Part shown: one piece after another, positions 7,003 to 19,930 of the stretch | Position numbering within the stretch: position 1 is the stretch's first letter | How the letters are laid out: each line of letters opens with the position of its first letter | Source: an uncultured Erysipelotrichaceae bacterium | GTDB lineage: Bacteria > Bacillota_I > Bacilli_A > RF39 > UBA660 | NCBI GenBank assembly: GCA_902793375.1 | Contig: CADBDE010000003.1 | Coordinates: 30,039 to 94,038, forward strand | Length of the DNA: 64,000 bases | Direction: 5' to 3' | Position numbers and translations under genes: made by a program | The notes under the pieces: generated by a model | Told to the model about the DNA's origin: nothing | Database searches by the model: none | What the model saw: only the letters and a program-made list of their open reading frames with translations

Positions 7003-7404
7003 ATGAATAATTATAATTATTTTGATCCATTAAATATTCCAAATAATGAAAATGCAAACAGTCTTTATGGAGCATATGAAGGATATTTAAAAGGAAATAT
7101 GTTTAGTAATCTATATGAAGAATATAAGGGTTATAAACCTGATGTATTAAGACCTGATAATGAAAAAGAACAAGAGTTATTTAACTTAAATCAAATAGGA
7201 TTTGCTTTACATGACATTAATCTATATTTAGATGTAAATCCAAACGACAATCAAATGCTTAGAATATTTGATAAATATAAGAATTTATATAATGAATTAT
7301 TTACACAATATGAAAATAAATATGGAGCAATTTGTGTAAATAATGTTAATAATAAAATTCCATTTGAATGGGAAAATTCAAGTTTCCCATGGGAGGGTAA
7401 ATAA
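7003..7404 (+). CDS. cotJB: Spore coat protein CotJB family (133 aa; the N-terminal extension may be a fused CotJA-like segment)
   Basis: IGFALHDINLYLDVNPNDNQMLRIFDKYKNLYNELFTQYENKYG matches the CotJB signature. It is translationally coupled (ATG overlapping the stop) to cotJC. Confidence 0.65.
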   Translation: MNNYNYFDPLNIPNNENANSLYGAYEGYLKGNMFSNLYEEYKGYKPDVLRPDNEKEQELFNLNQIGFALHDINLYLDVNPNDNQMLRIFDKYKNLYNELFTQYENKYGAICVNNVNNKIPFEWENSSFPWEGK

Positions 7405-7970
7405 TGTTTCAGTATCAAAAAAAATTACAATATCCAATTAATATAAAAAAGAAAGATTTAAAAATGGCAAAATACTTAGTAACTCAATATGGAGGATCTA
7501 ATGGTGAGCTTGGTGCTGCTTTAAGATATTTAAATCAAAGATATTCAATGCCTGATAATAGAGGAAAGGCACTTCTTACTGATATAGGAACAGAAGAATT
7601 AGCTCATGTTGAAATGATATCAACAATGATTTATCAATTAACAAAAGATGCAACGATTGAAGAGCTTGAAAGTGTTGGATTAGGTCCACATTATGCAGAA
7701 CATAGTAAAGGTCTATATCCAACTGATTCAAATGGAGTTCCATTTACAGTTGCATATTTTGCAACTACTGGAGATCCAATTGCAGATTTATACGAAGATA
7801 TGGCAGCAGAACAAAAAGCAAGAGCAGTATATGAAAATCTAATAAATATGACTGATGATAAAGATGTCATAAATCCATTAATATGGTTAAGACAAAGAGA
7901 AATAGTACATTTTAACATGTTTAAAGATTTAGTTAGTATATATGAAAAAGAAAAGAAAGTTAACTATTAA
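7404..7970 (+). CDS. cotJC: Spore coat protein CotJC (manganese-catalase-like ferritin fold)
   Basis: YQKKLQYPINIK...QYGGSNGELGAALRYLNQRYSMPD...TDIGTEELAHVEMI...DPIADLYEDMAAEQKARAVYE closely parallels B. subtilis CotJC. Confidence 0.85.
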   Translation: MFQYQKKLQYPINIKKKDLKMAKYLVTQYGGSNGELGAALRYLNQRYSMPDNRGKALLTDIGTEELAHVEMISTMIYQLTKDATIEELESVGLGPHYAEHSKGLYPTDSNGVPFTVAYFATTGDPIADLYEDMAAEQKARAVYENLINMTDDKDVINPLIWLRQREIVHFNMFKDLVSIYEKEKKVNY

Positions 7971-7978
7971 CTTTCTTT

Positions 7979-10933
7979 TTATTCATAAAAATCATCAAAT
8001 TTATTATCTTCCTCTGCTCCATTTTCAAGATTTAAATCAAATTGAGGTTTATTTTCTTCTGTTTGAACTCCCATATATTTATTTGTTTCCTCTTCTTTAA
8101 CTTTTCCTTGATTCAAATCTGAAAAATTAACAAAGTTTCCTGATTTCATATCTTCATAATAATCTTTATTATTTGTTGGACTAGTTATATTTCCATTAGT
8201 TGTAATATTATTCTCTTCTTTATTTTTTTGAACATCATCCAATATATTTTTTTGAAAGAACGATGAGTTATTTGTCATATTTTGTTGGTTATTATTACTT
8301 TGATTATCTATAAAAGTCCAATTTTTATTTGAATTCATTCCCATATTTGAATTATTCTGAATTCCAAAGCCGGTAGGATTATTATTAATTCCAAATCCTG
8401 CTGGATTATTATTTATTCCAAATCCCGTTGGATTAAATTGTTGATTTTGATTATTACCTTCATTACTTAAGGCAGCTGCAGAATTAGTAATGGCAGAAAG
8501 ATTATTCAATTTTTCAAAAGTTGGAAATTCATTAACAATCTCTCCATTTTTAATGCTCATATTATCAATAATCATATCATTATCTATAATACCAGTTGAA
8601 TTATTATCATTATTTTGTTTATCTTGATCTACACTATACATTGGTGCTCCAAATAATGTTTCTGAATTTTCATCTTTAGAACTTTCTCCATACATTGGTG
8701 CTCCAAACAATGTTTCACCACCATTATTAGAAGAACTATTATTAAAGAATGATCCAGTAGGTTGATTATTAGTAGGTATTTCACTATTCATTGGTCCACT
8801 AAACGATTGATTATTCATTTGTTGGTTCATTGGTCCTTGCATTGGTCCTCCATACATTTGATCATTCATTGGTGGGTTCATTGGTCCTTGCATTGGTCCT
8901 CCATACATTTGGTCATTCATTGGTGGGTTCATTGGTCCTTGCATTGGTCCTCCAAACATCTGGTCATTCATTGGTGGGTTCATTGGACCTTGCATTGCTC
9001 CTCCAAACATCTGGTCATTCATTGGTGGGTTCATTGGTCCTTGCATTGCTCCTCCATACATTTGGTCATTCATTGGCATGTTAATTGGTCCTTGCATTGG
9101 TCCTCCGAACACTTGGTCATTCATTGGCATGTTCATTGGTCCTTGCATTGGTCCTCCATACATTTGATCATTCATTGGCATGTTCATTGGTCCTTGCATT
9201 GGTCCTCCGAACATTTGATCATTCATTGGCATGTTCATTGGTCCTTGCATTTGATTGTTCATATTATAATTTCCACCAGTATTTGAATTTGCAACAGAAC
9301 TTCCACTCATAAGCATATCAATTCTATTTCTATCTTCATTATTATTTGCATTATTTTCAGGATGAAAATAATTCTGATACTTATCAAAATTTTGATTGCT
9401 TATATCTTGTCTTTCTGGTTTAAAATCATTATTCCACATACGCTTTCCCTCATTCTTTTTGTTTTTTTGATTTCCTCTATATTTTTCAGGCACATATTCT
9501 ATATTTTGTTCTTCTATTTCAGCATTACTTCCAATTGGTCTTCCAAGTAAAAAGCCATCATCTACTCCAGGTCTTATTTCATCAGTAACGACATAATCTA
9601 TAACTTGTTTTTGTTTTGGAGCTTCGTTTTTTAATACTCCAACATTTGATGATAATATCATATCATCTAGTTTACTTGAATCAACTGTTTTATTAATTTT
9701 TTCTTTCAATCCGGTAGAAACAGCAGCTGATCCTACTTTTGCATATTTTGTTTTTCCAGTTGATGTAATTATATTATTGATTGGTTTACTATTTCTAAGT
9801 TCAACCTTATCAATCATATCTGGATCACTTTCGAATAAAGACATTTTGTTTTGGAATTCTTCTTCCTCTTTTCTTTTCTTCATCCGATTATTATATACTT
9901 CATTATTCTTTATTTTTAATTCTTCGTGGCTTTCTTCATCGCCATCATCTTCTTCATTGTTTTCTAACTCACTTCTTGTTAAAGTTCCATCTTTTCGCCA
10001 CTCTTCAATTGGTTTCTCGCCCTTTTCCTCAAGCATTATATCATTAAACATCTTATCAAAATTAGGTAGTTCTTTTTTTATAACATCTGGATAAATGTTT
10101 TTAGAATTTTCTATTGCTTTTCTAACATCAAATATATCCATATATGGTCTATTATCATATACTGTATATGAAAAAGCTTGTTTTAAAAGTGTTAAACATA
10201 CATCAGGATACCTTGATCCTAGTGAAAATATTCTTTTATATTCACTAGTTATGTCTACGATGAAACTCATAATTCTTTCTTGAATAAATGATGTATACTT
10301 CATCTTCCTTCCTGTTTGTTTTTCAAACTTTGGAAGAGTTCCCATCATTATTGCTATTGTTTCATCTCTTGAAGGTTCTGGAACTTCAATTTTCTGAAAT
10401 CTTCTTGTAAAAGCTTTATCTCTTAAAATATATCTTTCATATTCTTCTGTCGTAGTAGCACCAATTACTTTTATGCTTCCTCTACCCAACCCCTCTTTAA
10501 AAATATTGGCAAAGTCCAATGATGAAGTTTCTGTTGATCCAATCAACATATGAATTTCATCTATAAATAATATTATTTTTTCTTTAGTTTTTAATTCATC
10601 AATCATTTTTTGAACTTTGCTTTCTCCACTTGGCATTGTTCCAAGTAAAGAAGCTGTTTTAATATTTAAAATTGTATATCCCTGTAAGGCATCAGGTACA
10701 TTGTTTTGTTGAATTCTATATGCTAATCCTTCAACAATAGCAGTTTTACCTATACCTGGTTTTCCAATTAAAATTGCAGATTTTTCAGGGGTTAATAGGA
10801 CTAAAATTAATTCTTTTATTTGCTGATCTCGCCCAATGGCAGGATCAGTAACATATTCATCTTTAGTGACATCTGTACCATAACGTTCAAGTACACTAAA
10901 ATTGGCTTCGAATTCCATTGTTTCCTTATCCAT
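7979..10933 (-). CDS. AAA+ ATPase with a single ClpA/ClpB D1-like module, followed by a long low-complexity C-terminal region (tandem 17-aa PMNMPMNDQMYGG repeats, FG and N/Q-rich tail)
   Basis: N-terminus DPAIGRDQQIKELILVLLTPEKSAILIGKPGIGKTAIVEGLAYRI...ILFIDEIHMLIG...RRFQKIEVPEPS matches the Clp/Hsp100 D1 Walker A/B and sensor regions. No Clp N-domain and no D2. About nine repeats of GGPMQGPMNMPMNDQMY, then NPTGFGINNNPAGFGINNNPTGFGIQNN. Confidence 0.7.
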   Translation of the reverse strand: MDKETMEFEANFSVLERYGTDVTKDEYVTDPAIGRDQQIKELILVLLTPEKSAILIGKPGIGKTAIVEGLAYRIQQNNVPDALQGYTILNIKTASLLGTMPSGESKVQKMIDELKTKEKIILFIDEIHMLIGSTETSSLDFANIFKEGLGRGSIKVIGATTTEEYERYILRDKAFTRRFQKIEVPEPSRDETIAIMMGTLPKFEKQTGRKMKYTSFIQERIMSFIVDITSEYKRIFSLGSRYPDVCLTLLKQAFSYTVYDNRPYMDIFDVRKAIENSKNIYPDVIKKELPNFDKMFNDIMLEEKGEKPIEEWRKDGTLTRSELENNEEDDGDEESHEELKIKNNEVYNNRMKKRKEEEEFQNKMSLFESDPDMIDKVELRNSKPINNIITSTGKTKYAKVGSAAVSTGLKEKINKTVDSSKLDDMILSSNVGVLKNEAPKQKQVIDYVVTDEIRPGVDDGFLLGRPIGSNAEIEEQNIEYVPEKYRGNQKNKKNEGKRMWNNDFKPERQDISNQNFDKYQNYFHPENNANNNEDRNRIDMLMSGSSVANSNTGGNYNMNNQMQGPMNMPMNDQMFGGPMQGPMNMPMNDQMYGGPMQGPMNMPMNDQVFGGPMQGPINMPMNDQMYGGAMQGPMNPPMNDQMFGGAMQGPMNPPMNDQMFGGPMQGPMNPPMNDQMYGGPMQGPMNPPMNDQMYGGPMQGPMNQQMNNQSFSGPMNSEIPTNNQPTGSFFNNSSSNNGGETLFGAPMYGESSKDENSETLFGAPMYSVDQDKQNNDNNSTGIIDNDMIIDNMSIKNGEIVNEFPTFEKLNNLSAITNSAAALSNEGNNQNQQFNPTGFGINNNPAGFGINNNPTGFGIQNNSNMGMNSNKNWTFIDNQSNNNQQNMTNNSSFFQKNILDDVQKNKEENNITTNGNITSPTNNKDYYEDMKSGNFVNFSDLNQGKVKEEETNKYMGVQTEENKPQFDLNLENGAEEDNKFDDFYE
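8812..9250. repeat. In-frame tandem DNA repeat, 51-bp period, about 8-9 copies, encoding the PMNMPMNDQMYGG protein repeats of the AAA+ gene
   Basis: Unit ttgcattggtcctccatacatttggtcattcattggtgggttcattggtcc is repeated head-to-tail with few substitutions (visible 8841-9250). Confidence 0.85.
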
Positions 10934-11354
10934 TGAACAAGCCTCCTATCATAGAACATTATAACACACGATTATGTATTTAATAAAGATAAAATAAAGA
11001 AAAAAAGAAACTTTTTTGTAGAAGATATCATATATCTAAATCTTCATCTTTACGATGAGCTAAAAATTTTGATGGTACTAAGGATTCTTTAATTGATGAA
11101 TCGCATAAATCTCTCTCAAAACACCCTAACGCTCAAACTGAATAAGAATTAAAATGGATTAAAGACATCTCTAATATTACTCTCCCTGAATTATATTGAA
11201 AAGTTGAAAGAAGTCATAGAAATGATCAATAAAGATTATATTCTTATCTAAAGTTCTATTCCTATGATAATTTATTACTTCAAATGAAAGTTTATCTTAA
11301 ACGTTCAAATAACATCATACTTGGTTGAATTTCTACTATTCAAAAAAAATCTAT

Positions 11355-11790: not shown

Positions 11791-13923
11791 TTAATTATTT
11801 TTAACTATTTTATGACATCTACGATTAATTGCTAAAAGTGTTCCAAAACTGATAAACAGTATAAAGCAATACTTTTTAATTGAATCATCAGTTGCTGGGT
11901 TATCAAGTACTTCATCTATTTTCCAGTTAACAGCTATTGTTACATTTTCAAACGGCATAGTAAATTTATTAAGCATTATAGATATTGTTCCATCTTCATT
12001 TTTTATTAAATCGTTTTCTTCAAAAGCTATTTCTTCTCCACTAGATGTTCTTACAATTATCTCCTTCAATTTTACTCCATTTTTAGAAGTAAGTTTAAAA
12101 GTTATTTCTTCTCCTCCTTTTGCATTATCTACAACTTCTATTTCCCCATTTTCATCTATTTCAGTATCTACTTTATAACTCAATTCACTAATTGGTATTG
12201 TTATTACAGGACGAACTCCACAGCCTAATTTAGTTTTATAATCATTAAGTATACTACCACATACAGATCTACTAGTTGTATCAAATCCTGCTCCACATAT
12301 GCCACCAGAACTATCTACAAATACAACTGAATTAACTCCTATTCCATTATTTGATCTATCATATCCTGCTCTTATCCAGTATGTTGTATTATATATAAAA
12401 CTATGTTTTTTCGCTAATAAGTCATTTAAAAAACCAAACTCATAATGTGGGGGTTGAATTGTTGGAGTTGCGCTACTCCACTCTTGATAAGGCAATGTTT
12501 TATTATTTAGCTTAGTTATTTCATTTATTTCATCTAATGTCAATAAATCAACGTCTGTAACATCAACACCATAAAAGTTTAAAGTAGTTTTGTATGATTT
12601 CAATTTTGTTAATATAGATGTCTCTGAATTATTATTTCCTAAAGTCAAATCATAAAAATATCCATCATATTTATCACCACTTGCTTCATCAACATAAAAA
12701 TCTACAAATGTATTAATATGTCCATTATAATATTGACGAGATTCTATATATATATCTCCTACTTGTGGATATAAATAATTGCCATCTTCATCCCAATGAG
12801 CACTTTTTGCTTCTTCATTTTGAGTTATTAAATCTGTTGAGATTTCTTGAGCTATAAAACAATAATTTGGAATATTATAATATCCTTCTCTTCTTGATTC
12901 AGCACCCAACGAAGTAGCTAAGTCTTGACAATATTCTTCATCAGTTCTATTATCACTAGAGTCTTTTTCTATTTTAATTTTTGATATTGTAGTACCTGTA
13001 TATAGATTATATTTTGATATCATTCTTACTTTTTCACTATCTTTTGATAATAAATAAAAATGTTCTTCACCACAGGCAATTTCATCACCTATTTCTTTTC
13101 CACTACCACTAATAACTTGACATTGCCATTTATCATGCTTTCCAAAATTTACTTCAACATATAATGATCCCATTGGTCTACTAGTAGACAAAGAAACAAA
13201 CTCATTTTCCAATGAATGAATATCATATTTTTCATATAAAATGTTTCCTTGATAGTCTTTTACAACAATTGAATCAACATAATTAAATTTGTCTGGAACT
13301 GCATAAAAATATACACTTTCATTTAATACATTAGTTAGTTCACTAACAGTTGTTGTTCCATTACCATTTATAGTTACATTAGTATCAAATTTAACACGGG
13401 TATAAAAGTTTCTATCCATTGAATCAACTATACTACAAGAAGAATTTCGACAACAACTTACAGTGCTTTTATCAGTAAATCTAAATTCATTTTCATTTGT
13501 TTTAAAGTAAAAATAATTATCAATAGATCCTTTATTATTATCATAATAATAAGAATAAAGAATACCTCCAAAGTTTGAATTAAGTGGAACCCAATCATGC
13601 GCTGACATGTCTATAAAAAAATTACTAGTTTTATTTTCATATATTACTTTATTACCAGTTATTTTTATAACTTCATTTTGAAAAGTATATCCTTCTACAT
13701 TTACTAAATATAAAAGTCCAGCTAGTTTTTCTGGAGTATTAATTAAGTAGTCATAATTTCCATAAAATGAAGAAACATCCCCCTTAACATTATTATAAGT
13801 ACTTGGATCAAACCAACTTGTATCTCTATAAGATGGATCATCTAACCAAGTATCTGCTTTCACCATTGTTGGTATAAAGAATAATGTTAATAATGTGACA
13901 ATTAAAAAAATTGCTTTTTTCAT
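11791..13923 (-). CDS. Secreted cell-surface protein (710 aa) with signal peptide, variable central domains and a conserved C-terminal module ending in an NPATD motif, hydrophobic segment and basic tail (putative cell-wall sorting/anchor signal)
   Basis: N-terminus MKKAIFLIVTLLTLFFIPTMVKA. C-terminus ...NWKIDEVLDNPATDDSIKKYCFILFISFGTLLAINRRCHKIVKNN. Last 130 aa are about 70% identical to the 14286..15998 product. Internal region CQVISGSGKEIGDEIACGEEHFY is shared with the paralog. Confidence 0.6.
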   Translation of the reverse strand: MKKAIFLIVTLLTLFFIPTMVKADTWLDDPSYRDTSWFDPSTYNNVKGDVSSFYGNYDYLINTPEKLAGLLYLVNVEGYTFQNEVIKITGNKVIYENKTSNFFIDMSAHDWVPLNSNFGGILYSYYYDNNKGSIDNYFYFKTNENEFRFTDKSTVSCCRNSSCSIVDSMDRNFYTRVKFDTNVTINGNGTTTVSELTNVLNESVYFYAVPDKFNYVDSIVVKDYQGNILYEKYDIHSLENEFVSLSTSRPMGSLYVEVNFGKHDKWQCQVISGSGKEIGDEIACGEEHFYLLSKDSEKVRMISKYNLYTGTTISKIKIEKDSSDNRTDEEYCQDLATSLGAESRREGYYNIPNYCFIAQEISTDLITQNEEAKSAHWDEDGNYLYPQVGDIYIESRQYYNGHINTFVDFYVDEASGDKYDGYFYDLTLGNNNSETSILTKLKSYKTTLNFYGVDVTDVDLLTLDEINEITKLNNKTLPYQEWSSATPTIQPPHYEFGFLNDLLAKKHSFIYNTTYWIRAGYDRSNNGIGVNSVVFVDSSGGICGAGFDTTSRSVCGSILNDYKTKLGCGVRPVITIPISELSYKVDTEIDENGEIEVVDNAKGGEEITFKLTSKNGVKLKEIIVRTSSGEEIAFEENDLIKNEDGTISIMLNKFTMPFENVTIAVNWKIDEVLDNPATDDSIKKYCFILFISFGTLLAINRRCHKIVKNN

Positions 13924-14285: not shown

Positions 14286-15998
14286 TTAATTATTTTTTGC
14301 TTTTTTATGGCATTTACGATTAATTGCTAAAAGTGTTCCATAACTGATAAATAAAATAAAGCAGTACTTTGCAATTTCATCATCAGTTGCTGGGTTATCA
14401 AGTACTTCATCTATTTTCCAGTTAGCTGTTATTGTTACATTTTCAAAAGGCATAACAAATTTATTATTCATTATTGTTACTGTTCCATCTTCGTTTTCAA
14501 TTAAATCTCCTTCAGTAAACTCTATTGTCGTTCCATTCTCGGTTGTTATTGTGATAGTAGATAATTTATATCCTTTTTTAGGAGACACTTTAAAACTTAT
14601 TGTTTCATTTCCTGCTGAATTATCTACTACTTCTATTTCACCATTGTTATCTGTTTCTGCAGCGATATTATATAAGATTTCATTTTTTGATAATGTAATT
14701 AAAGGTCTTAGTCCTGCTCCAACATCAACTGAACAGTACCCAGCATTACATATATCTCCCCAACTATCTACAAAGAAAGCATTACTTCCAGAATCTCTCG
14801 TTCTAGTCCAATATGTTGTAGCCCATATCCATGAATAATCATCTGGTATATGATCTTTTAAACTACCAATAATATTAAAATTAGCTCCAAAATGGTTTCC
14901 TTGTTGCCAATTTGATGTCCAATCATCAAGTGGTAATCTATTATTCGTTGTATTATATGTGAAATTATCTAAATCTTTTACAGTAATTAGATTGATATCA
15001 CTTATTCCAACATTTAAAGATTCTAAATATCTTTTATAAAACAATAATGAATTTGTCATTTTTTGATCATAACTATAATCTAATATAACATCTCGATAAT
15101 TATTATCGTTATATGATGAATTACTATCAAATGATCCCTGTCCTAACGGATTAGCGGTAAATGATCCATATTCAGGTAATTCAGCTACTCCTCTTACTGC
15201 TCCATGAGCTCCAATTGCTAACTCACTTTGTTTAACCATTTTTGATTCATTCATTTTTTTATAATAATATCCATAATAATAAATAACGGAATACTTAGTA
15301 TCTTTAAATTCAGAATAATGGATACTATATCCTTCTGCTATTTTTTGTTGATATTCTTCTGAACTTTGTATTTCATTAATATTTAACGAATGGTTTGAAT
15401 CTTCTGCCATGTGTATTTCTGTTGTATAAGAGTCATTTTTATAAAGTATAATATAAGTTGCATCATAGTAATACTCACCGTTAATTACTTCTCTAGTACT
15501 ATATCCTAATGTAATACTAATAGTACTTTTAGGAATAAAGCCTTCATTTTGAATAGCATCAATTACTTCAGGTAAATATAGTATTTCTCTATATGTTCTT
15601 GGTGTCCCATCAAGTTGAATTTTTTTATATGTAATCTCCATTTCTTTATAAAATGTATAATCCGTCTCGTTTTTTTGAAAATCATAAGCCGCTTTTTGTT
15701 CTGAATATCCAAGATTTAATAATTCTTGGGCTTTTTCATTATTACTATACCCAGGATAGCGTCCAGGAATAACGACATGATCAAATTGATTACCATCAAA
15801 TATATTATATTTTGCTAATAATCTTAGATTAGAATCATCTTTGTCAAATACGTAAAAGTGTTCCCCTCCACAATCAATTTCACTACCTAAATCATTTCCG
15901 TTTCCTGACACTACTCTACAGTGGCCTTCAGCATCTACAACTTTTGGTATAAAGAATAATGTTAATAATGTGACAATTAAAAAAAATACTTTTTTCAT
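14286..15998 (-). CDS. Secreted cell-surface protein (570 aa), paralog of 11791..13923, with the same C-terminal NPATD/hydrophobic/basic anchor
   Basis: N-terminus MKKVFFLIVTLLTLFFIPKVVDA. C-terminus ...NWKIDEVLDNPATDDEIAKYCFILFISYGTLLAINRKCHKKAKNN. DNA around the stop/start junction (14270-14340) duplicates 11788-11850. Confidence 0.6.
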   Translation of the reverse strand: MKKVFFLIVTLLTLFFIPKVVDAEGHCRVVSGNGNDLGSEIDCGGEHFYVFDKDDSNLRLLAKYNIFDGNQFDHVVIPGRYPGYSNNEKAQELLNLGYSEQKAAYDFQKNETDYTFYKEMEITYKKIQLDGTPRTYREILYLPEVIDAIQNEGFIPKSTISITLGYSTREVINGEYYYDATYIILYKNDSYTTEIHMAEDSNHSLNINEIQSSEEYQQKIAEGYSIHYSEFKDTKYSVIYYYGYYYKKMNESKMVKQSELAIGAHGAVRGVAELPEYGSFTANPLGQGSFDSNSSYNDNNYRDVILDYSYDQKMTNSLLFYKRYLESLNVGISDINLITVKDLDNFTYNTTNNRLPLDDWTSNWQQGNHFGANFNIIGSLKDHIPDDYSWIWATTYWTRTRDSGSNAFFVDSWGDICNAGYCSVDVGAGLRPLITLSKNEILYNIAAETDNNGEIEVVDNSAGNETISFKVSPKKGYKLSTITITTENGTTIEFTEGDLIENEDGTVTIMNNKFVMPFENVTITANWKIDEVLDNPATDDEIAKYCFILFISYGTLLAINRKCHKKAKNN

Positions 15999-17714: not shown

Positions 17715-18905
17715 TTATCTCTCAAAGTCATCTTTTCCTTTGCTTAAATCCAACTCTTCAATATTATCATCATCTAAAACATTATCATCATACATGTCAT
17801 TAATAACATCAATATATTTATCATCTTTATCATACCAACTATGAAGTTTATCGTGTAAGAAGGATATTAATTTACTAAATTTATCCTTCCAATAATCTAT
17901 TGTATCTTTTAAATCTTGTATTTTAGATTTTAAAAATGATATTTCATTATTCTTTTCTTTAATTGTATCATTTAAAGTCTTAACTCTTAAATTAAGTACT
18001 TCATTGTTTTCAGTAAGAGTTTTAATCTTATTATTTTTATCTTTTAATTGTTCGTGAGCATTTACTAGTGTATTAGATAGAGTTTGTATTTTATCATATT
18101 CTTTATTAGTGTTATCTACTTGATTGATAAAGTCGATAAAAGTTTTTTTATCTTCTTTTGATAAAATATAATTATCTTTATTAAATCTAGATACTTTTAA
18201 TTTATCAATTTTATCTTTTATATCTTTGGAATTTTGTTTTAACTCCGAAGATTTTTTATTTGCTTGTTTTAGATTTTCGGTATTCTTTTCAATTTGCTTT
18301 TTCATTTCAATATAGTTATCCATATCAGATACATGAATATCTCTATTTCTACCTTTTTGTTTTTGTTTTAAAGTAGAGTCTAAACTATATACTTGATTAA
18401 ATTCTTCAATACATAAAGTTCTCATTTTATCTTGCAATCTTATTAAAGATTCTTTAGTAAATACATCAGATTTACCAACTTGTTTTTCCATACCATTTTT
18501 ATTTTTATATTTAATTGGAACTCCAACAATATGTAAATGTGGACTTGTTTCATCATAATGAATAATTGCACTAGCTACTTTAAAATTTGGAACAAGCATT
18601 TCTAAATCATCAACTTGTTTTTTATATACTTCTGACATTTTCTTTTTAAAGTTTTCATCTTTAGTATCCCAATATTCTTTATCTCCAAGTTCAAGTATTA
18701 TTTCACAAGCAAGATCTTTTTTCTCGTTATTAGATACATTTTCAAAATAATTATCTATCATACGACTAGGTCTAGATTGTTTAGAATTATATTCTAATCT
18801 TGCTTCTTCAAATTCACTTAAATAAAGTTCTTTTACATCATCAAGTGGAGAAGAAGTACCTCTTATTATTTCAATTAGTTCTTGATTATTAACATATTTT
18901 CTTTT
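17715..18905 (-). pseudogene. mob: MobV/Pre-family plasmid mobilization relaxase, 5-prime truncated. Annotated ORF is 17715..18761; the reading frame stays open upstream to a TGA at 18906-18908 with no start codon.
   Basis: HYDETSPHLHIVGVP matches the Mob_Pre HxDE...PHxH metal-binding motif. KDLACEIILELGDKEYW aligns to the KDAVL...TSDKDFF segment of pMV158 MobM. The N-terminal roughly 45 aa, including the catalytic region, are absent. In-frame upstream codons ...YVNNQELIEIIRGTSSPLDDVKELYLSEFEEARLEYNSKQSRPSR precede the annotated Met and stop at the repeat boundary. Confidence 0.65.
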
Positions 18906-19768: not shown

Positions 19769-19850
19769 ACAACAAAAAATCAATTCCATTTCTAGAATTG
19801 ATATTTATTAGTAAATTGAACCAAAGTTCAACCAGATTCTTTAATGGTGC
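19769..19850. repeat. 82-bp direct repeat, copy 2. Its last 6 nt are the 3-prime end (GCACCA) of tRNA-Leu.
   Basis: 81/82 identical to 18910..18991. The copies are 859 bp apart. Confidence 0.85.
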
Positions 19851-19930
19851 CTGAGGTGGGACTTGAACCCACACGGTGTCGCCACCATCGGATTTTGAGT
19901 CCGACACGTCTACCATTCCATCACTCAGGC
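19845..19930 (-). tRNA. tRNA-Leu (anticodon CAA) with long variable arm and encoded CCA
   Basis: Reverse complement gcctgag...tcggaCTCAAAAtccga...long variable arm tggtggcgacaccgtgt...GGTTCAAGTCCC...ctcaggc-a-cca. Anticodon loop is CTCAAAA. Confidence 0.85.

What the first reader, a model, noticed from the sequence alone, without database searches (positions are those of the whole stretch)
7979..10933. Clp/Hsp100 D1-only AAA+ ATPase carrying a prion-like repeat tail
The N-terminal 230 aa are an unmistakable ClpA/ClpB first AAA module, but the protein lacks a Clp N-domain, middle domain and D2. Instead it is followed by a roughly 700-aa disordered region. That region has about nine perfect tandem 17-aa repeats (GGPMQGPMNMPMNDQMY, encoded by 51-bp DNA repeats at 8812-9250), FG repeats (NPTGFGINNNPAGFGI) and N/Q-rich stretches. 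A Met/Pro/Gln/Asn-rich, FG-containing low-complexity domain on a disaggregase-like ATPase is highly unusual in bacteria. The repeat tract is also a likely site of length polymorphism.
Basis: seen in the sequence. Interest (0 to 1): 0.6.

Follow-up and report, generated by a model that had tools for sequence, protein, structure and literature searches.

The report
Clp-derived single-ring ATPase with disordered tail
An uncultured gut bacterium encodes a real, conserved protein that joins half of a Clp/Hsp100 chaperone motor, without its substrate-gripping loop, to a 670-residue floppy tail made of short conserved docking motifs and fast-evolving Met/Pro/Asn/Gln repeats; this design has not been described and its function is unknown.

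Summary
Window 7979-10933 (- strand) is one 984-aa ORF. Residues 1-313 are a Clp/Hsp100 D1-type AAA+ module. Residues 314-984 are predicted disordered.

The tandem array is 9.1 copies of 51 bp at 92% identity, so it is not perfect.

The interpretation needs three corrections.
- The core keeps Walker A, Walker B, sensor-1 and the Arg fingers. It has lost the N-domain, M-domain and D2, and its pore-1 loop "KYR" is replaced by a shorter loop without an aromatic residue. A classical threading disaggregase is therefore doubtful.
- The tail is not featureless. About 12 short motifs are conserved across 72 relatives and end in an acidic-aromatic tip (FDDFYE). Between them lie low-complexity blocks whose repeat units differ between species but whose composition is kept.
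- The protein belongs to a large unnamed family found here only in uncultured gut Bacilli/Mycoplasmatota MAGs. Most members are the 310-330-aa core alone. Long tails arose in one derived clade, at the C-terminus in one branch and the N-terminus in another.

Near-identical contigs carry 9, 7 or 4 repeat units. This is true polymorphism or assembly collapse.

Best reading: a ring ATPase hub whose tail recruits partners. The mechanism is inferred. Verdict: new variant of a known kind, interest 0.6.

The parts
7979..10933 (-). Whole gene, 984 aa plus stop. It has its own roughly 600-bp upstream intergenic region and is convergent with cotJC, with 8 bp between the stop codons.
9995..10933 (-). Conserved folded core, aa 1-313. 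It comprises the Clp/Hsp100 D1-type AAA+ large and small subdomains plus a family-specific C-terminal helix (NIYPDVIKKEL...EEKGEKPIEEWR).
10742..10765 (-). Walker A, GKPGIGKT (aa 57-64).
10616..10648 (-). Pore-1-loop equivalent, LLGTMPSGESK (aa 96-106). It aligns to the canonical AGAKYRGEFEER, is 3 residues shorter and has no aromatic residue.
10550..10573 (-). Walker B, ILFIDEIH (aa 121-128), with the catalytic Glu kept.
10394..10462 (-). Sensor-1 GATT (aa 158-161) and the Arg-finger pair in AFTRRFQ (aa 174-180).
10184..10249 (-). Lid segment TSEYKRIFSLGSRYPDVCLTLL (aa 229-250). It carries a 13-residue family-specific insertion before the counterpart of the canonical R(F/Y)LPDKAIDL.
9824..9994 (-). 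Acidic, variable linker (aa 314-370).
9302..9823 (-). Proximal cluster of conserved short motifs (aa 371-544): PDMIDK..KPI, AKVGS..GLKEKIN..LDDMILSS, VVTDEIRPGVDDGFLLGRPI, NEGKRMWNN..RQDISNQNFDKYQNYFH and RIDMLM.
8789..9251 (-). Tandem array of 51 bp x 9.1, a 17-aa unit PMQGPMN(M/P)PMNDQM(Y/F)GG (aa 561-715). Met is 38/155 and Pro 28/155, there are no K/R, and one aromatic residue falls every 17 aa. GC is 43% against 25% for the window. Copy number is 9, 7 or 4 in otherwise identical contigs.
8636..8716 (-). Two copies of the conserved motif E(T/S)LFGAPMY (aa 740-766). Relatives carry 1-4 copies.
8489..8563 (-). Conserved motif NMSIKNGEIVNEFPTFEKLNNLS (aa 791-815). AF2 draws a weak beta-hairpin here.
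8347..8435 (-). Repeat of 27 bp x 3.3 encoding NNNP(T/A)GFGI (aa 834-858), inside the N/Q-rich segment aa 804-930. It is not conserved in the closest orthologues, which have other repeats at this position.
8234..8326 (-). Conserved motifs KNWTFID (aa 870-876) and FFQKNILDD (aa 892-900).
7982..8170 (-). Conserved C-terminal module (aa 922-984): NKDYYEDMKSGNFVNFSDLNQGKVKEEETNKYMGV ... KPQFDLNLE ... acidic run ... FDDFYE-COOH. The DLNL(D/E) motif and the acidic-aromatic tip are also kept in relatives whose tails are only 70-110 aa.
10955..10975 (-). Candidate promoter with an extended -10 (TGTTATAAT) about 25 nt upstream of the RBS. The same element is present in the orthologous loci L001 and L002. 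The coordinates are approximate, read from the sequence.
   Evidence: sequence reading, not a functional test

Best explanation
The gene encodes a lineage-specific paralogue of the Clp/Hsp100 ATPases that has been reduced to the first nucleotide-binding module (D1).

The core keeps everything needed to bind and hydrolyse ATP. It also keeps the trans-acting arginine fingers, so it most likely works as a ring oligomer. It has lost the parts that make ClpB/ClpC a threading machine: the N-domain, the M-domain, D2 and the aromatic pore-1 loop.

In this clade a roughly 670-residue disordered arm is attached to the core. The arm is a string of about 12 conserved short linear motifs that ends in an acidic-aromatic tip. 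The motifs are separated by rapidly turning-over, uncharged Met/Pro/Gly/Asn/Gln blocks with regularly spaced Tyr/Phe.

My reading is that the arm takes the place of the missing N-domain and adaptors. Its motifs, some present in several copies, recruit partner or client proteins to the ATPase ring. The low-complexity blocks set the reach and self-association of the arms, so a hexamer would be a multivalent hub. ATP turnover then remodels or releases what is bound, rather than processively unfolding it.

What is shown: domain identity, motif retention and loss, predicted disorder, conservation of motifs and composition, family distribution and evolutionary order.

What is inferred: oligomerisation, partner recruitment and remodelling. 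No partner has been identified.
For: Core identity and losses:
- Clp D1 matches come from sequence and from fold.
- An alignment with canonical ClpB/C shows Walker A, Walker B, sensor-1 and RR kept. It also shows KYR replaced by a shorter non-aromatic loop and no M-domain or D2, in all nine family members aligned.
- The core is under strong constraint. It is 54-89% identical across 59 species-level loci and has 150+ invariant columns.

Tail:
- AF2 pLDDT is below 50 for 311-984, against 65-87 for the core.
- Motifs are conserved in 51-72 of 72 C-tail proteins, except three that are limited to the window's subclade (alignment).
- The low-complexity blocks keep their composition while the repeat unit and period differ between orthologues, from 12 to 23 aa.
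- The array has 43% GC in a 25% GC genome. Met is 25% against 2.3% and Pro 18% against 2.0% in the other ORFs of the window, which runs against mutational bias.
- The distal tip is kept in long tails, in 70-110-aa tails (DYFFD, DDFFFE), and as (N)RFIFSDD[YF]Y[DE] at the far N-terminus of 46 of 51 N-terminal-arm variants.

Paralogue, not replacement: canonical Clp genes lie 2-3 genes away in L006, L040 and L048.

Regulation: there is no CtsR or CIRCE operator, and an extended -10 is conserved.
Against: - No partner, substrate or phenotype is known, and nothing here tests oligomerisation or ATPase activity.
- Most family members lack any tail, so the core must have a tail-independent function that remains unidentified.
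- About 20 of 72 C-tail proteins have no uncharged low-complexity block, so that block is not essential to the family's function.
- AF2 monomer models give no confident docking of the tip onto the core, either in the full-length protein or in a 380-aa short-tail homologue. Intramolecular regulation therefore has no support.
- Non-aromatic pore loops do not strictly exclude translocation.
- Synteny offers no operon partner for the tailed forms.
Confidence: 0.45

Rival explanations
1. ATP-controlled condensate scaffold. The Met/aromatic sticker-and-spacer blocks drive phase separation or gelation of the hexamer. The ATPase, and possibly reversible Met oxidation, tunes assembly and dissolution. 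The conserved motifs recruit clients into the condensate.
For: - The composition is uncharged and G/P/Q/N/M-rich, with one Tyr/Phe exactly every 17 aa and 24.5% Met.
- The same kind of block, built from different repeat units, occurs in about 45 of 72 relatives. Some are FG-type (FGMPDQGFGM, GFGPPPQNSFGMDP) and some GY-type.
- There is precedent for each ingredient. The Met-rich low-complexity domain of yeast Pbp1 forms condensates that melt on Met oxidation (PMC8394241). The hexameric ATPase Rho of the gut bacterium B. thetaiotaomicron forms functional condensates (PMC13269538, abstract).
Against: - This rests purely on composition.
- Pro is 18% in the array.
- About 20 of 72 tailed relatives and all N-terminal-arm and core-only members lack such blocks. 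Condensation cannot be the family's core function.
- N-rich low complexity is common in AT-rich Mycoplasmatota-like genomes (PMC6400439).
Confidence: 0.2
2. It is still an unfoldase or disaggregase. A single D1 ring threads substrates using Met/Pro pore loops, and the tail acts as a built-in adaptor that captures aggregated or specific clients.
For: It is homologous to the D1 of ClpB/ClpC/Hsp104. The ATPase and Arg-finger residues are intact. An Hsp20 gene lies nearby in 6 of 59 loci.
Against: - The pore-1 aromatic residue is lost and the loop is shortened in all members.
- There is no D2, which is the main motor in ClpB/Hsp104, and no M-domain for Hsp70 coupling. There is also no ClpP-binding loop, which sits in D2. 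These roles are established knowledge of the family.
- No CtsR or CIRCE heat-shock operator is present.
- Canonical Clp paralogues coexist with it.
Confidence: 0.15
3. Sporulation or spore-coat assembly factor. The ATPase with its sticky arm acts in the mother cell together with CotJ proteins.
For: cotJC and cotJB lie convergently next to the gene in the window. The pair recurs within 1-5 genes in about 20 of 59 family loci, including members with different architectures (L002, L009, L010, L012).
Against: - The orientation is convergent, so the genes are not co-transcribed.
- glmS is equally often adjacent, which suggests inherited gene order rather than a functional link.
- The conserved promoter element looks sigma-A-like.
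- No other sporulation genes were seen in the ORFs scanned.
- No homologue was found in cultured spore-formers.
Confidence: 0.1
4. The low-complexity parts of the tail are neutral slippage products of an AT-rich genome, and only the core matters, perhaps with a few motifs. A variant of this rival is that the repeat array or the fusion is an assembly artefact.
For: - The N-rich segments, for example aa 815-900 at 26.7% GC, match the genome's bias.
- Repeat units turn over quickly and copy number varies.
- The 7- and 4-copy versions come from k141 assemblies, whose k-mer is shorter than the array.
Against: - The 17-aa array is GC-rich (43% against 25%) and enriched 9-11-fold in Met and Pro, against the bias.
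- Compositionally similar blocks sit at the same position in many orthologues.
- The motifs are conserved.
- The identical 984-aa protein is on 4 contigs, one of them 251 kb.
- The fused architecture is shared by more than 70 proteins.
Confidence: 0.1

Closest known systems
ClpB / ClpC / ClpA / Hsp104 (class I Clp/Hsp100 unfoldases), D1 module
   Same: There is clear homology of aa 1-300 to D1, at about 31-45% identity, in both sequence and fold. Walker A, Walker B, sensor-1, the Arg fingers and the lid subdomain are all kept.
   Different: There is no N-domain, M-domain, D2 or ClpP loop. The pore-1 KYR is replaced by a shorter non-aromatic loop, and the lid carries a 13-aa insertion. Scores are 5-7 times below the NCBIfam equivalog cut-offs. 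The family forms a separate, long-branched clade, with an identity gap of at least 54% within the family against at most 47% to canonical Clp.
Rho termination factor with a prion-like or disordered insertion (C. botulinum Rho; B. thetaiotaomicron Rho condensates)
   Same: It is a bacterial ring ATPase that carries a long low-complexity disordered region, found in gut or AT-rich Firmicutes/Bacteroidota lineages. In B. thetaiotaomicron Rho that region drives functional condensation (PMC13269538, PMC4703818, PMC6400439).
   Different: Rho has a RecA-type fold and a known RNA substrate, and its IDR is an insertion in the N-terminal domain. Here the motor is AAA+ Clp-D1, no nucleic-acid-binding domain is present, and the IDR is a terminal arm studded with conserved motifs.
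Met-rich prion-like low-complexity domains (yeast Pbp1/ataxin-2, TDP-43 CTD)
   Same: It has a very high Met content in an uncharged polar context: 38 Met in 155 aa. The literature links such domains to phase separation that is sensitive to Met oxidation (PMC8394241; PMC9312190).
   Different: Those domains are eukaryotic and are not attached to an ATPase. The array here also has 18% Pro and strictly periodic aromatic residues. No experiment has been done.
p97/Cdc48 C-terminal tail and other AAA+ proteins with terminal docking motifs (from my own knowledge, not tested here)
   Same: An AAA+ ring carries a flexible terminal extension that ends in an acidic-aromatic motif (p97 ...DDDLYG), which recruits cofactors. 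The window protein ends ...EEDNKFDDFYE, and this tip is conserved.
   Different: The p97 tail is short, the protein has two rings plus an N-domain, and its partners (PUB/PUL domains) are eukaryotic. No partner is known here, so the resemblance is a lead only.

Membership tests
Class I Clp/Hsp100 unfoldase (ClpA/ClpB/ClpC/ClpE/ClpL) | Two tandem AAA+ modules (D1 + D2) | tested here: not met
   The NCBIfam, PDB and Pfam matches cover only aa 6-255. There is no AAA_2/D2 match and the rest of the protein is disordered.
Class I Clp/Hsp100 unfoldase (ClpA/ClpB/ClpC/ClpE/ClpL) | N-terminal Clp_N repeat domain (or a zinc finger in ClpE) | tested here: not met
   The protein starts 5-10 residues before the D1 'LERYG.D(L/V)T' segment, and there is no Clp_N hit.
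Class I Clp/Hsp100 unfoldase (ClpA/ClpB/ClpC/ClpE/ClpL) | Coiled-coil M-domain inserted at the end of D1 (ClpB/ClpC) | tested here: not met
   In the alignment with five canonical proteins, the family sequence continues with NIYPDVIKKEL... where the M-domain begins.
Class I Clp/Hsp100 unfoldase (ClpA/ClpB/ClpC/ClpE/ClpL) | Aromatic pore-1 loop in D1 (KYRGEFE) | tested here: not met
   GAKYRGEFEER aligns to GTMP-SG--ESK. No aromatic residue is present in any of the 9 family members aligned.
Class I Clp/Hsp100 unfoldase (ClpA/ClpB/ClpC/ClpE/ClpL) | Score above the curated equivalog cut-off | tested here: not met
   Scores are 162-178 bits against cut-offs of 885-1232.
AAA+ ATPase, Clp-D1 lineage (homology only) | Walker A, Walker B with catalytic Glu, sensor-1, Arg finger(s) and alpha-helical lid | tested here: met
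   GKPGIGKT, ILFIDEIH, GATT and AFTRRFQ are present and the lid helices are modelled at pLDDT 70-95. The Pfam AAA score is 48.9 bits against a cut-off of 21.2.
AAA+ ATPase, Clp-D1 lineage (homology only) | Ring (hexamer) assembly and ATP hydrolysis | not testable with these tools
   This is inferred only from the conserved Arg fingers. It needs SEC-MALS or EM and an ATPase assay.
Prion-like (Q/N-rich) domain | At least 30 Q+N in an 80-residue window (the Michelitsch-Weissman criterion, recalled from memory) | tested here: met
   The maximum is 34 of 80, in windows starting at aa 804-850. The criterion is NOT met in the 17-aa repeat array, which is about 25% N+Q and 18% Pro.
Prion-like (Q/N-rich) domain | Self-propagating amyloid or heritable conformer | not testable with these tools
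   No PLAAC or PAPA run was available and no experiment was done.
FG-repeat (nucleoporin-like) cohesive domain | Many FG dipeptides spaced by polar, uncharged linkers | tested here: inconclusive
   The window protein has only three GFGI copies, and they are absent from its closest orthologues. Distant relatives P0066 and P0069 carry tens of FG/GFG units.
Met-rich prion-like low-complexity domain (Pbp1-type) | Unusually Met-rich, uncharged low-complexity region | tested here: met
   There are 38 Met in 155 aa, only 8 charged residues (all Asp) and Met every 2-4 residues. Redox sensitivity was not testable.
Known anti-phage defence ATPases (PADLOC) | A significant match to a defence-system model, plus system partners | tested here: not met
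   Only generic P-loop matches were found (IetA/TRIP13, 22-28 bits, over about 80 residues) and no partner genes are present.

The most novel reading that the evidence does not exclude
The tailed proteins are self-contained, ATP-driven condensate organisers. Six Met/aromatic sticker-and-spacer arms per ring phase-separate, and reversible Met oxidation may switch this on and off. The conserved motifs load specific clients, and the Clp-derived ring uses ATP to fluidise or dissolve the assembly. This would be a bacterial system in which scaffold and remodeller sit in one polypeptide. It would have evolved repeatedly within one gut lineage, with arms at the N- or C-terminus and with FG-, GY- or PM-type repeats.
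Probability: 0.15. Interest if true: 0.85.

Novelty: new variant of a known kind. Interest (0 to 1): 0.6.

Why it matters
Clp/Hsp100 ATPases are among the best-studied protein machines, and all characterised bacterial class I members have two rings with aromatic pore loops. This finding concerns a large, strongly conserved and so far unnamed offshoot that keeps only D1 and has given up the substrate-gripping loop. It is annotated only as 'AAA family ATPase' or, wrongly, as a Clp protease subunit. That raises the question of what a lone D1 ring does.

The tailed subclade adds a natural experiment in the evolution of disordered regions. Docking motifs stay fixed, repeat blocks are replaced freely but keep their composition, and the same kind of distal tip appears on arms attached to either end of the core. 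If the tail does drive assembly or client recruitment, the protein would be a tractable bacterial model for ATPase-regulated low-complexity scaffolds. It would also point to cell biology specific to abundant but uncultured gut Bacilli/Mycoplasmatota.

In practical terms, the 51-bp array is a strain-level length marker and a place where short-read assemblies may go wrong.

Tried and rejected
- Stand-alone tail gene. The tail (aa 317-984) was searched against 1.84 billion representative proteins and gave only 33 hits. The real hits are the same fused family or fragments that start at an internal Met (P0140, P0141, P0143). The rest are compositional matches. A motif scan of 59 loci found tail motifs only inside fused genes.
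- Genetic-code artefact (UGA=Trp truncating relatives). Stops are mostly TAA/TAG and no ORF continues past them.
- Heat-shock regulon membership. No CtsR or CIRCE operators were found upstream in the window, and only two weak CtsR-like matches in 59 loci. The generic promoter/terminator scan was no better than shuffled sequence.
- Defence or phage origin. PADLOC gave only generic P-loop hits.
- Operon partner from synteny. The recurrent neighbours are cotJC/cotJB (convergent), glmS, a 133-aa 4-TM protein and a zinc-ribbon membrane protein. The last two occur only next to core-only members, and neither has an informative Pfam match. Hsp20 occurs in 6 loci. No partner emerged for the tailed forms.
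- Cis-docking of the acidic-aromatic tip onto the core. AF2 on the full-length protein and on a 380-aa short-tail homologue with 33 sequences leaves the tip at pLDDT below 50. This is unsupported but not excluded, because only monomers were modelled.
- Names and literature. Cluster look-up returned no names. Four full-text searches found no description of a D1-only Clp family or of this architecture.
- Rfam. Only two tRNAs were found in the window and nothing in the gene.
- PLAAC/PAPA scores were not computed. I did not trust remembered parameter tables, so I used transparent composition measures instead.

Full report
OBSERVATION. Window 7979-10933 on the - strand is a single 984-aa ORF. It has an ATG start, an AGGAGG ribosome-binding site and about 600 bp of non-coding DNA upstream. 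Tandem Repeats Finder reports a 51-bp unit in 9.1 copies at 92% identity (score 674) at 8789-9251. It also reports a 27-bp unit in 3.3 copies at 8347-8435. Read in frame, the first array is nine 17-aa units, PMQGPMN(M/P)PMNDQM(Y/F)GG, plus a degenerate tenth (aa 561-715). The units differ at several positions, so they are not 'perfect'. The second array encodes three NNNP(T/A)GFGI units. The + strand ORFs across the array (8762-9286 and others) are antisense by-products of the repeat.

THE CORE.
- Pfam finds only a generic AAA domain (aa 54-179).
- NCBIfam ClpA, ClpB and ClpV models match aa 6-217 at E 1e-47 to 1e-52. The scores are 162-178 bits, far below the full-length cut-offs of 885-1232.
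- The best PDB sequence matches are ClpB, Hsp104, ClpC and ClpA, always to their first AAA module.
- Foldseek with the AF2 model gives the same answer: about 270-300 aligned columns at about 31% identity.
- AF2 folds aa 1-310 with pLDDT 65-87. In a 380-aa homologue the core reaches pLDDT 95.

I aligned nine family members with five canonical Clp proteins taken from the fetched loci. These features are kept:
- Walker A (GKPGIGKT)
- Walker B with its Glu (ILFIDEIH)
- sensor-1 (GATT)
- the Arg-finger pair (AFTRRFQ)
- the lid

These features are lost or changed:
- There is no N-domain. The protein starts a few residues before the D1 'LERYG.DVT' segment.
- There is no M-domain coiled coil and no D2.
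- The pore-1 loop AGAKYRGEFEER is replaced by GTMP-SG--ESK. It is three residues shorter and has no aromatic residue, in all nine family members aligned.
- The lid has a 13-residue insertion before SRYPD.

The ATPase chemistry and the trans-acting fingers therefore argue for an active ring. The elements that define a Clp threading machine are gone.

THE TAIL. Residues 311-984 are below pLDDT 50 almost throughout. There are small rises at 410-430, 790-800 and 925-955.

Composition of the tail is N 17%, G 9%, M 8%, E 7%, P 7% and Q 7%, with net charge -40. The 17-aa array has 38 Met and 28 Pro in 155 residues, no Lys or Arg, and eight Asp. One Tyr or Phe falls exactly every 17 residues. The criterion of at least 30 Q+N per 80 residues is met only at about aa 804-930.

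The array has 43% GC in a 25% GC window. Met, Pro and Gln are 5-11 times above the level in the other 67 ORFs, so mutational bias does not explain it. The N-rich flanks (26.7% GC) could be bias-driven. N/Q-rich disorder is known to be frequent in Mycoplasma-like genomes (PMC6400439).

The tail is not featureless. An alignment of 15 full-length relatives and a regex census of 72 C-tail proteins show conserved short motifs:
- EEWR (72/72)
- LDDxLLS (67/72)
- LLGRPI (60/72)
- one to four copies of E(T/S)LFGAPMY (60/72)
- DIFGQL (54/72)
- RIKNGKIVDEFPTF (63/72)
- KxWTFID (51/72)
- FVNFxDLNxGK (65/72)
- DLNLE (51/72)
- a C-terminal acidic-aromatic tip, FDDF(Y/F)E (62/72)

Between the motifs, about 45 of 72 proteins carry at least 200 residues of uncharged G/P/Q/N/M sequence with 5-14% aromatic residues. 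The repeat units differ, however: GPMGGPMNGPM, MPPQNNGYY, GYGPQGNYGPYQ, FGMPDQGFGM and GFGPPPQNSFGMDP, with periods of 12-23. About 20 proteins have no such block. The motifs are therefore the constant element, and the low-complexity blocks are a variable but compositionally constrained one.

REPEAT COPY NUMBER. P0001 (950 aa) and P0002 (899 aa) are identical to the window protein except for 2 and 5 missing units. Their contigs show 0 mismatches in 3 kb on each side and in-register deletions. Both come from k141 assemblies, whose k-mer is shorter than the 463-bp array. Collapse therefore cannot be separated from real polymorphism. The 9-unit protein is found identically on 4 contigs, one of 251 kb. 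This argues against the window version being an artefact.

THE FAMILY. The first search returned thousands of relatives. The closest are unnamed or called 'AAA family ATPase [Bacilli bacterium]'. A second search shows some labelled 'ATP-dependent Clp protease ATP-binding subunit'.

In one genome per species (GTDB), 59 loci carry a family member with a core 54-89% identical to the window core. All are metagenome-assembled genomes, mostly from human, rabbit, goat, roe deer, chicken and mouse guts. They are labelled Bacilli, Tenericutes/Mollicutes, Mycoplasmatota or Erysipelotrichaceae, and a few carry other bin labels such as Muribaculaceae or Clostridia. One is Candidatus Pelethosoma. The next hits, at 47% identity or less, are ordinary ClpB/C/E.

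About 40 of the 59 members are the core alone, at 302-336 aa. A neighbour-joining tree places these basally. It places all extended forms in one derived clade with sub-branches:
- long C-terminal tails (window, L001, L002)
- short C-tails of 70-110 aa that keep only EEKG..W, DLNL(D/E) and the acidic-aromatic tip (L003, L004; alignment A3)
- a group ending DDDIEIL
- forms with a 250-620-aa acidic N-terminal arm and the core at the C-terminus

Of 51 N-terminal-arm proteins, 46 begin with (N)RFIFSDD(Y/F)Y(D/E). An aromatic-acidic tip thus sits at the end distal to the core in both orientations.

The tail by itself finds only 33 proteins among 1.84 billion representatives. These are fused family members, fragments starting at an internal Met, or compositional matches. 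The core-only loci carry no separate gene with the tail motifs. The fusion is therefore genuine and lineage-specific. The core is ancestral and the arm is an accretion.

CONTEXT. The gene is convergent with cotJB-cotJC (7003-7970), with 8 bp between the stops. Beyond them lie alanine racemase, polyprenyl synthetase, PAP2 and VanY. Upstream are an 83-aa ORF and two surface-like proteins.

Across the 59 loci:
- cotJC/cotJB recur within 1-5 genes in about 20.
- glmS lies downstream in 21.
- A 133-aa four-TM protein overlaps the stop codon of 14 core-only genes.
- A zinc-ribbon membrane protein follows 6.
- Hsp20 is nearby in 6.
- A canonical Clp gene is 2-3 genes away in 3.

The tailed forms have no co-directional partner. 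No CtsR or CIRCE operator is present. A TGTTATAAT extended -10 is shared by the window, L001 and L002. PADLOC gives only generic P-loop hits.

MECHANISM. This section is inference. The core is very strongly conserved and has intact catalytic and finger residues. That points to an ATP-hydrolysing ring. Loss of D2, the M-domain and the aromatic pore loop points away from processive threading.

The arm has repeated, conserved docking motifs and a conserved distal tip. That is the signature of a recruitment platform. I therefore favour a multivalent hub that brings partners to a remodelling ring, at confidence about 0.45. Within that, the anatomy is near-certain and the mechanism is not.

The rivals are:
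- an ATP- and possibly redox-tuned condensate scaffold, supported only by composition and by analogy to Pbp1 and to B. thetaiotaomicron Rho
- a residual unfoldase with a built-in adaptor
- a sporulation-linked factor, based on cotJ synteny
- neutral low complexity or an artefact

AF2 gave no confident docking of the tip on the core.

COMPARISON AND NOVELTY. By homology the core belongs to the Clp-D1 lineage of AAA+. By the defining features of class I Clp/Hsp100 it is not a member. Two rings, the N-domain, the M-domain, the aromatic pore loop and the curated score were each tested and not met. I found no paper or curated model describing a D1-only Clp family or this architecture. I rate it a new variant of a known kind.

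LIMITS. No experiment was done and no genome-wide co-occurrence analysis was run. The tree is a simple NJ tree, the motif counts use hand-written patterns, and the disorder call rests on AF2 confidence and composition.

Noticed in passing
window 7003-7970 (+), and loci L002, L009, L010, L012, L013 and others: cotJB (PF12652) and cotJC (Mn-catalase family) sit convergently against the 3' end of the AAA gene. The same pair recurs within 1-5 genes in about 20 of 59 family loci from MAGs labelled Bacilli/Mycoplasmatota. That hints these reduced gut lineages may sporulate.
   Followed up: partly
loci L013, L014, L018, L019, L023-L025, L028, L029, L032, L037, L040, L043, L048 (+1 gene): In 14 loci the AAA gene (core-only or with a short N-terminal extension) is followed by a roughly 133-aa protein with about four transmembrane helices; in L013 its start overlaps the AAA stop codon. 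It has no Pfam match. In 6 other loci a zinc-ribbon plus TM protein takes that place. These may be membrane partners of the tail-less ATPases.
   Followed up: partly
window 17715-18761 (-), near the tRNA at 19848-19930: A 348-aa ORF has a partial Mob_Pre (plasmid recombination/relaxase) match followed by a coiled coil. It may be a remnant of an integrated mobile element next to a tRNA gene.
   Followed up: no
window 11791-13923 (-) and 14286-15998 (-): Two large proteins of 710 and 570 aa, the first with an N-terminal signal-like segment and a C-terminal hydrophobic anchor. Neither has a significant Pfam family (only a weak Flg_new_2 match). They look like lineage-specific surface proteins just upstream of the AAA gene.
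   Followed up: no
window 8762-9286, 8830-9084 and 9085-9312 (+): ORFs of 174, 84 and 75 aa on the opposite strand, with HWS/LVLALVL repeats. They exist only because the 51-bp array lacks stop codons in antisense frames, and they are not genes.
   Followed up: yes
proteins P0049/P0050 (relatives), C-terminal half: Some family tails carry long Arg/Asp/Tyr-rich repeats (…RNRPRDDRYFDSDYDMRRGPDPRDGYPGYDRY…) instead of Met/Pro/Gln blocks. This is a quite different, highly charged kind of low complexity at the same position.
   Followed up: no
loci L006, L040, L048: A canonical two-ring Clp ATPase gene (709-772 aa) lies 2-3 genes downstream on the opposite strand from the D1-only gene. The two paralogues therefore coexist and are sometimes linked.
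   Followed up: partly
window about 10955-10975 (-), and L001/L002 upstream regions: A conserved TGTTATAAT (extended -10) lies about 25 nt before the RBS in three orthologous loci, and no CtsR or CIRCE heat-shock operators are present.
   Followed up: partly
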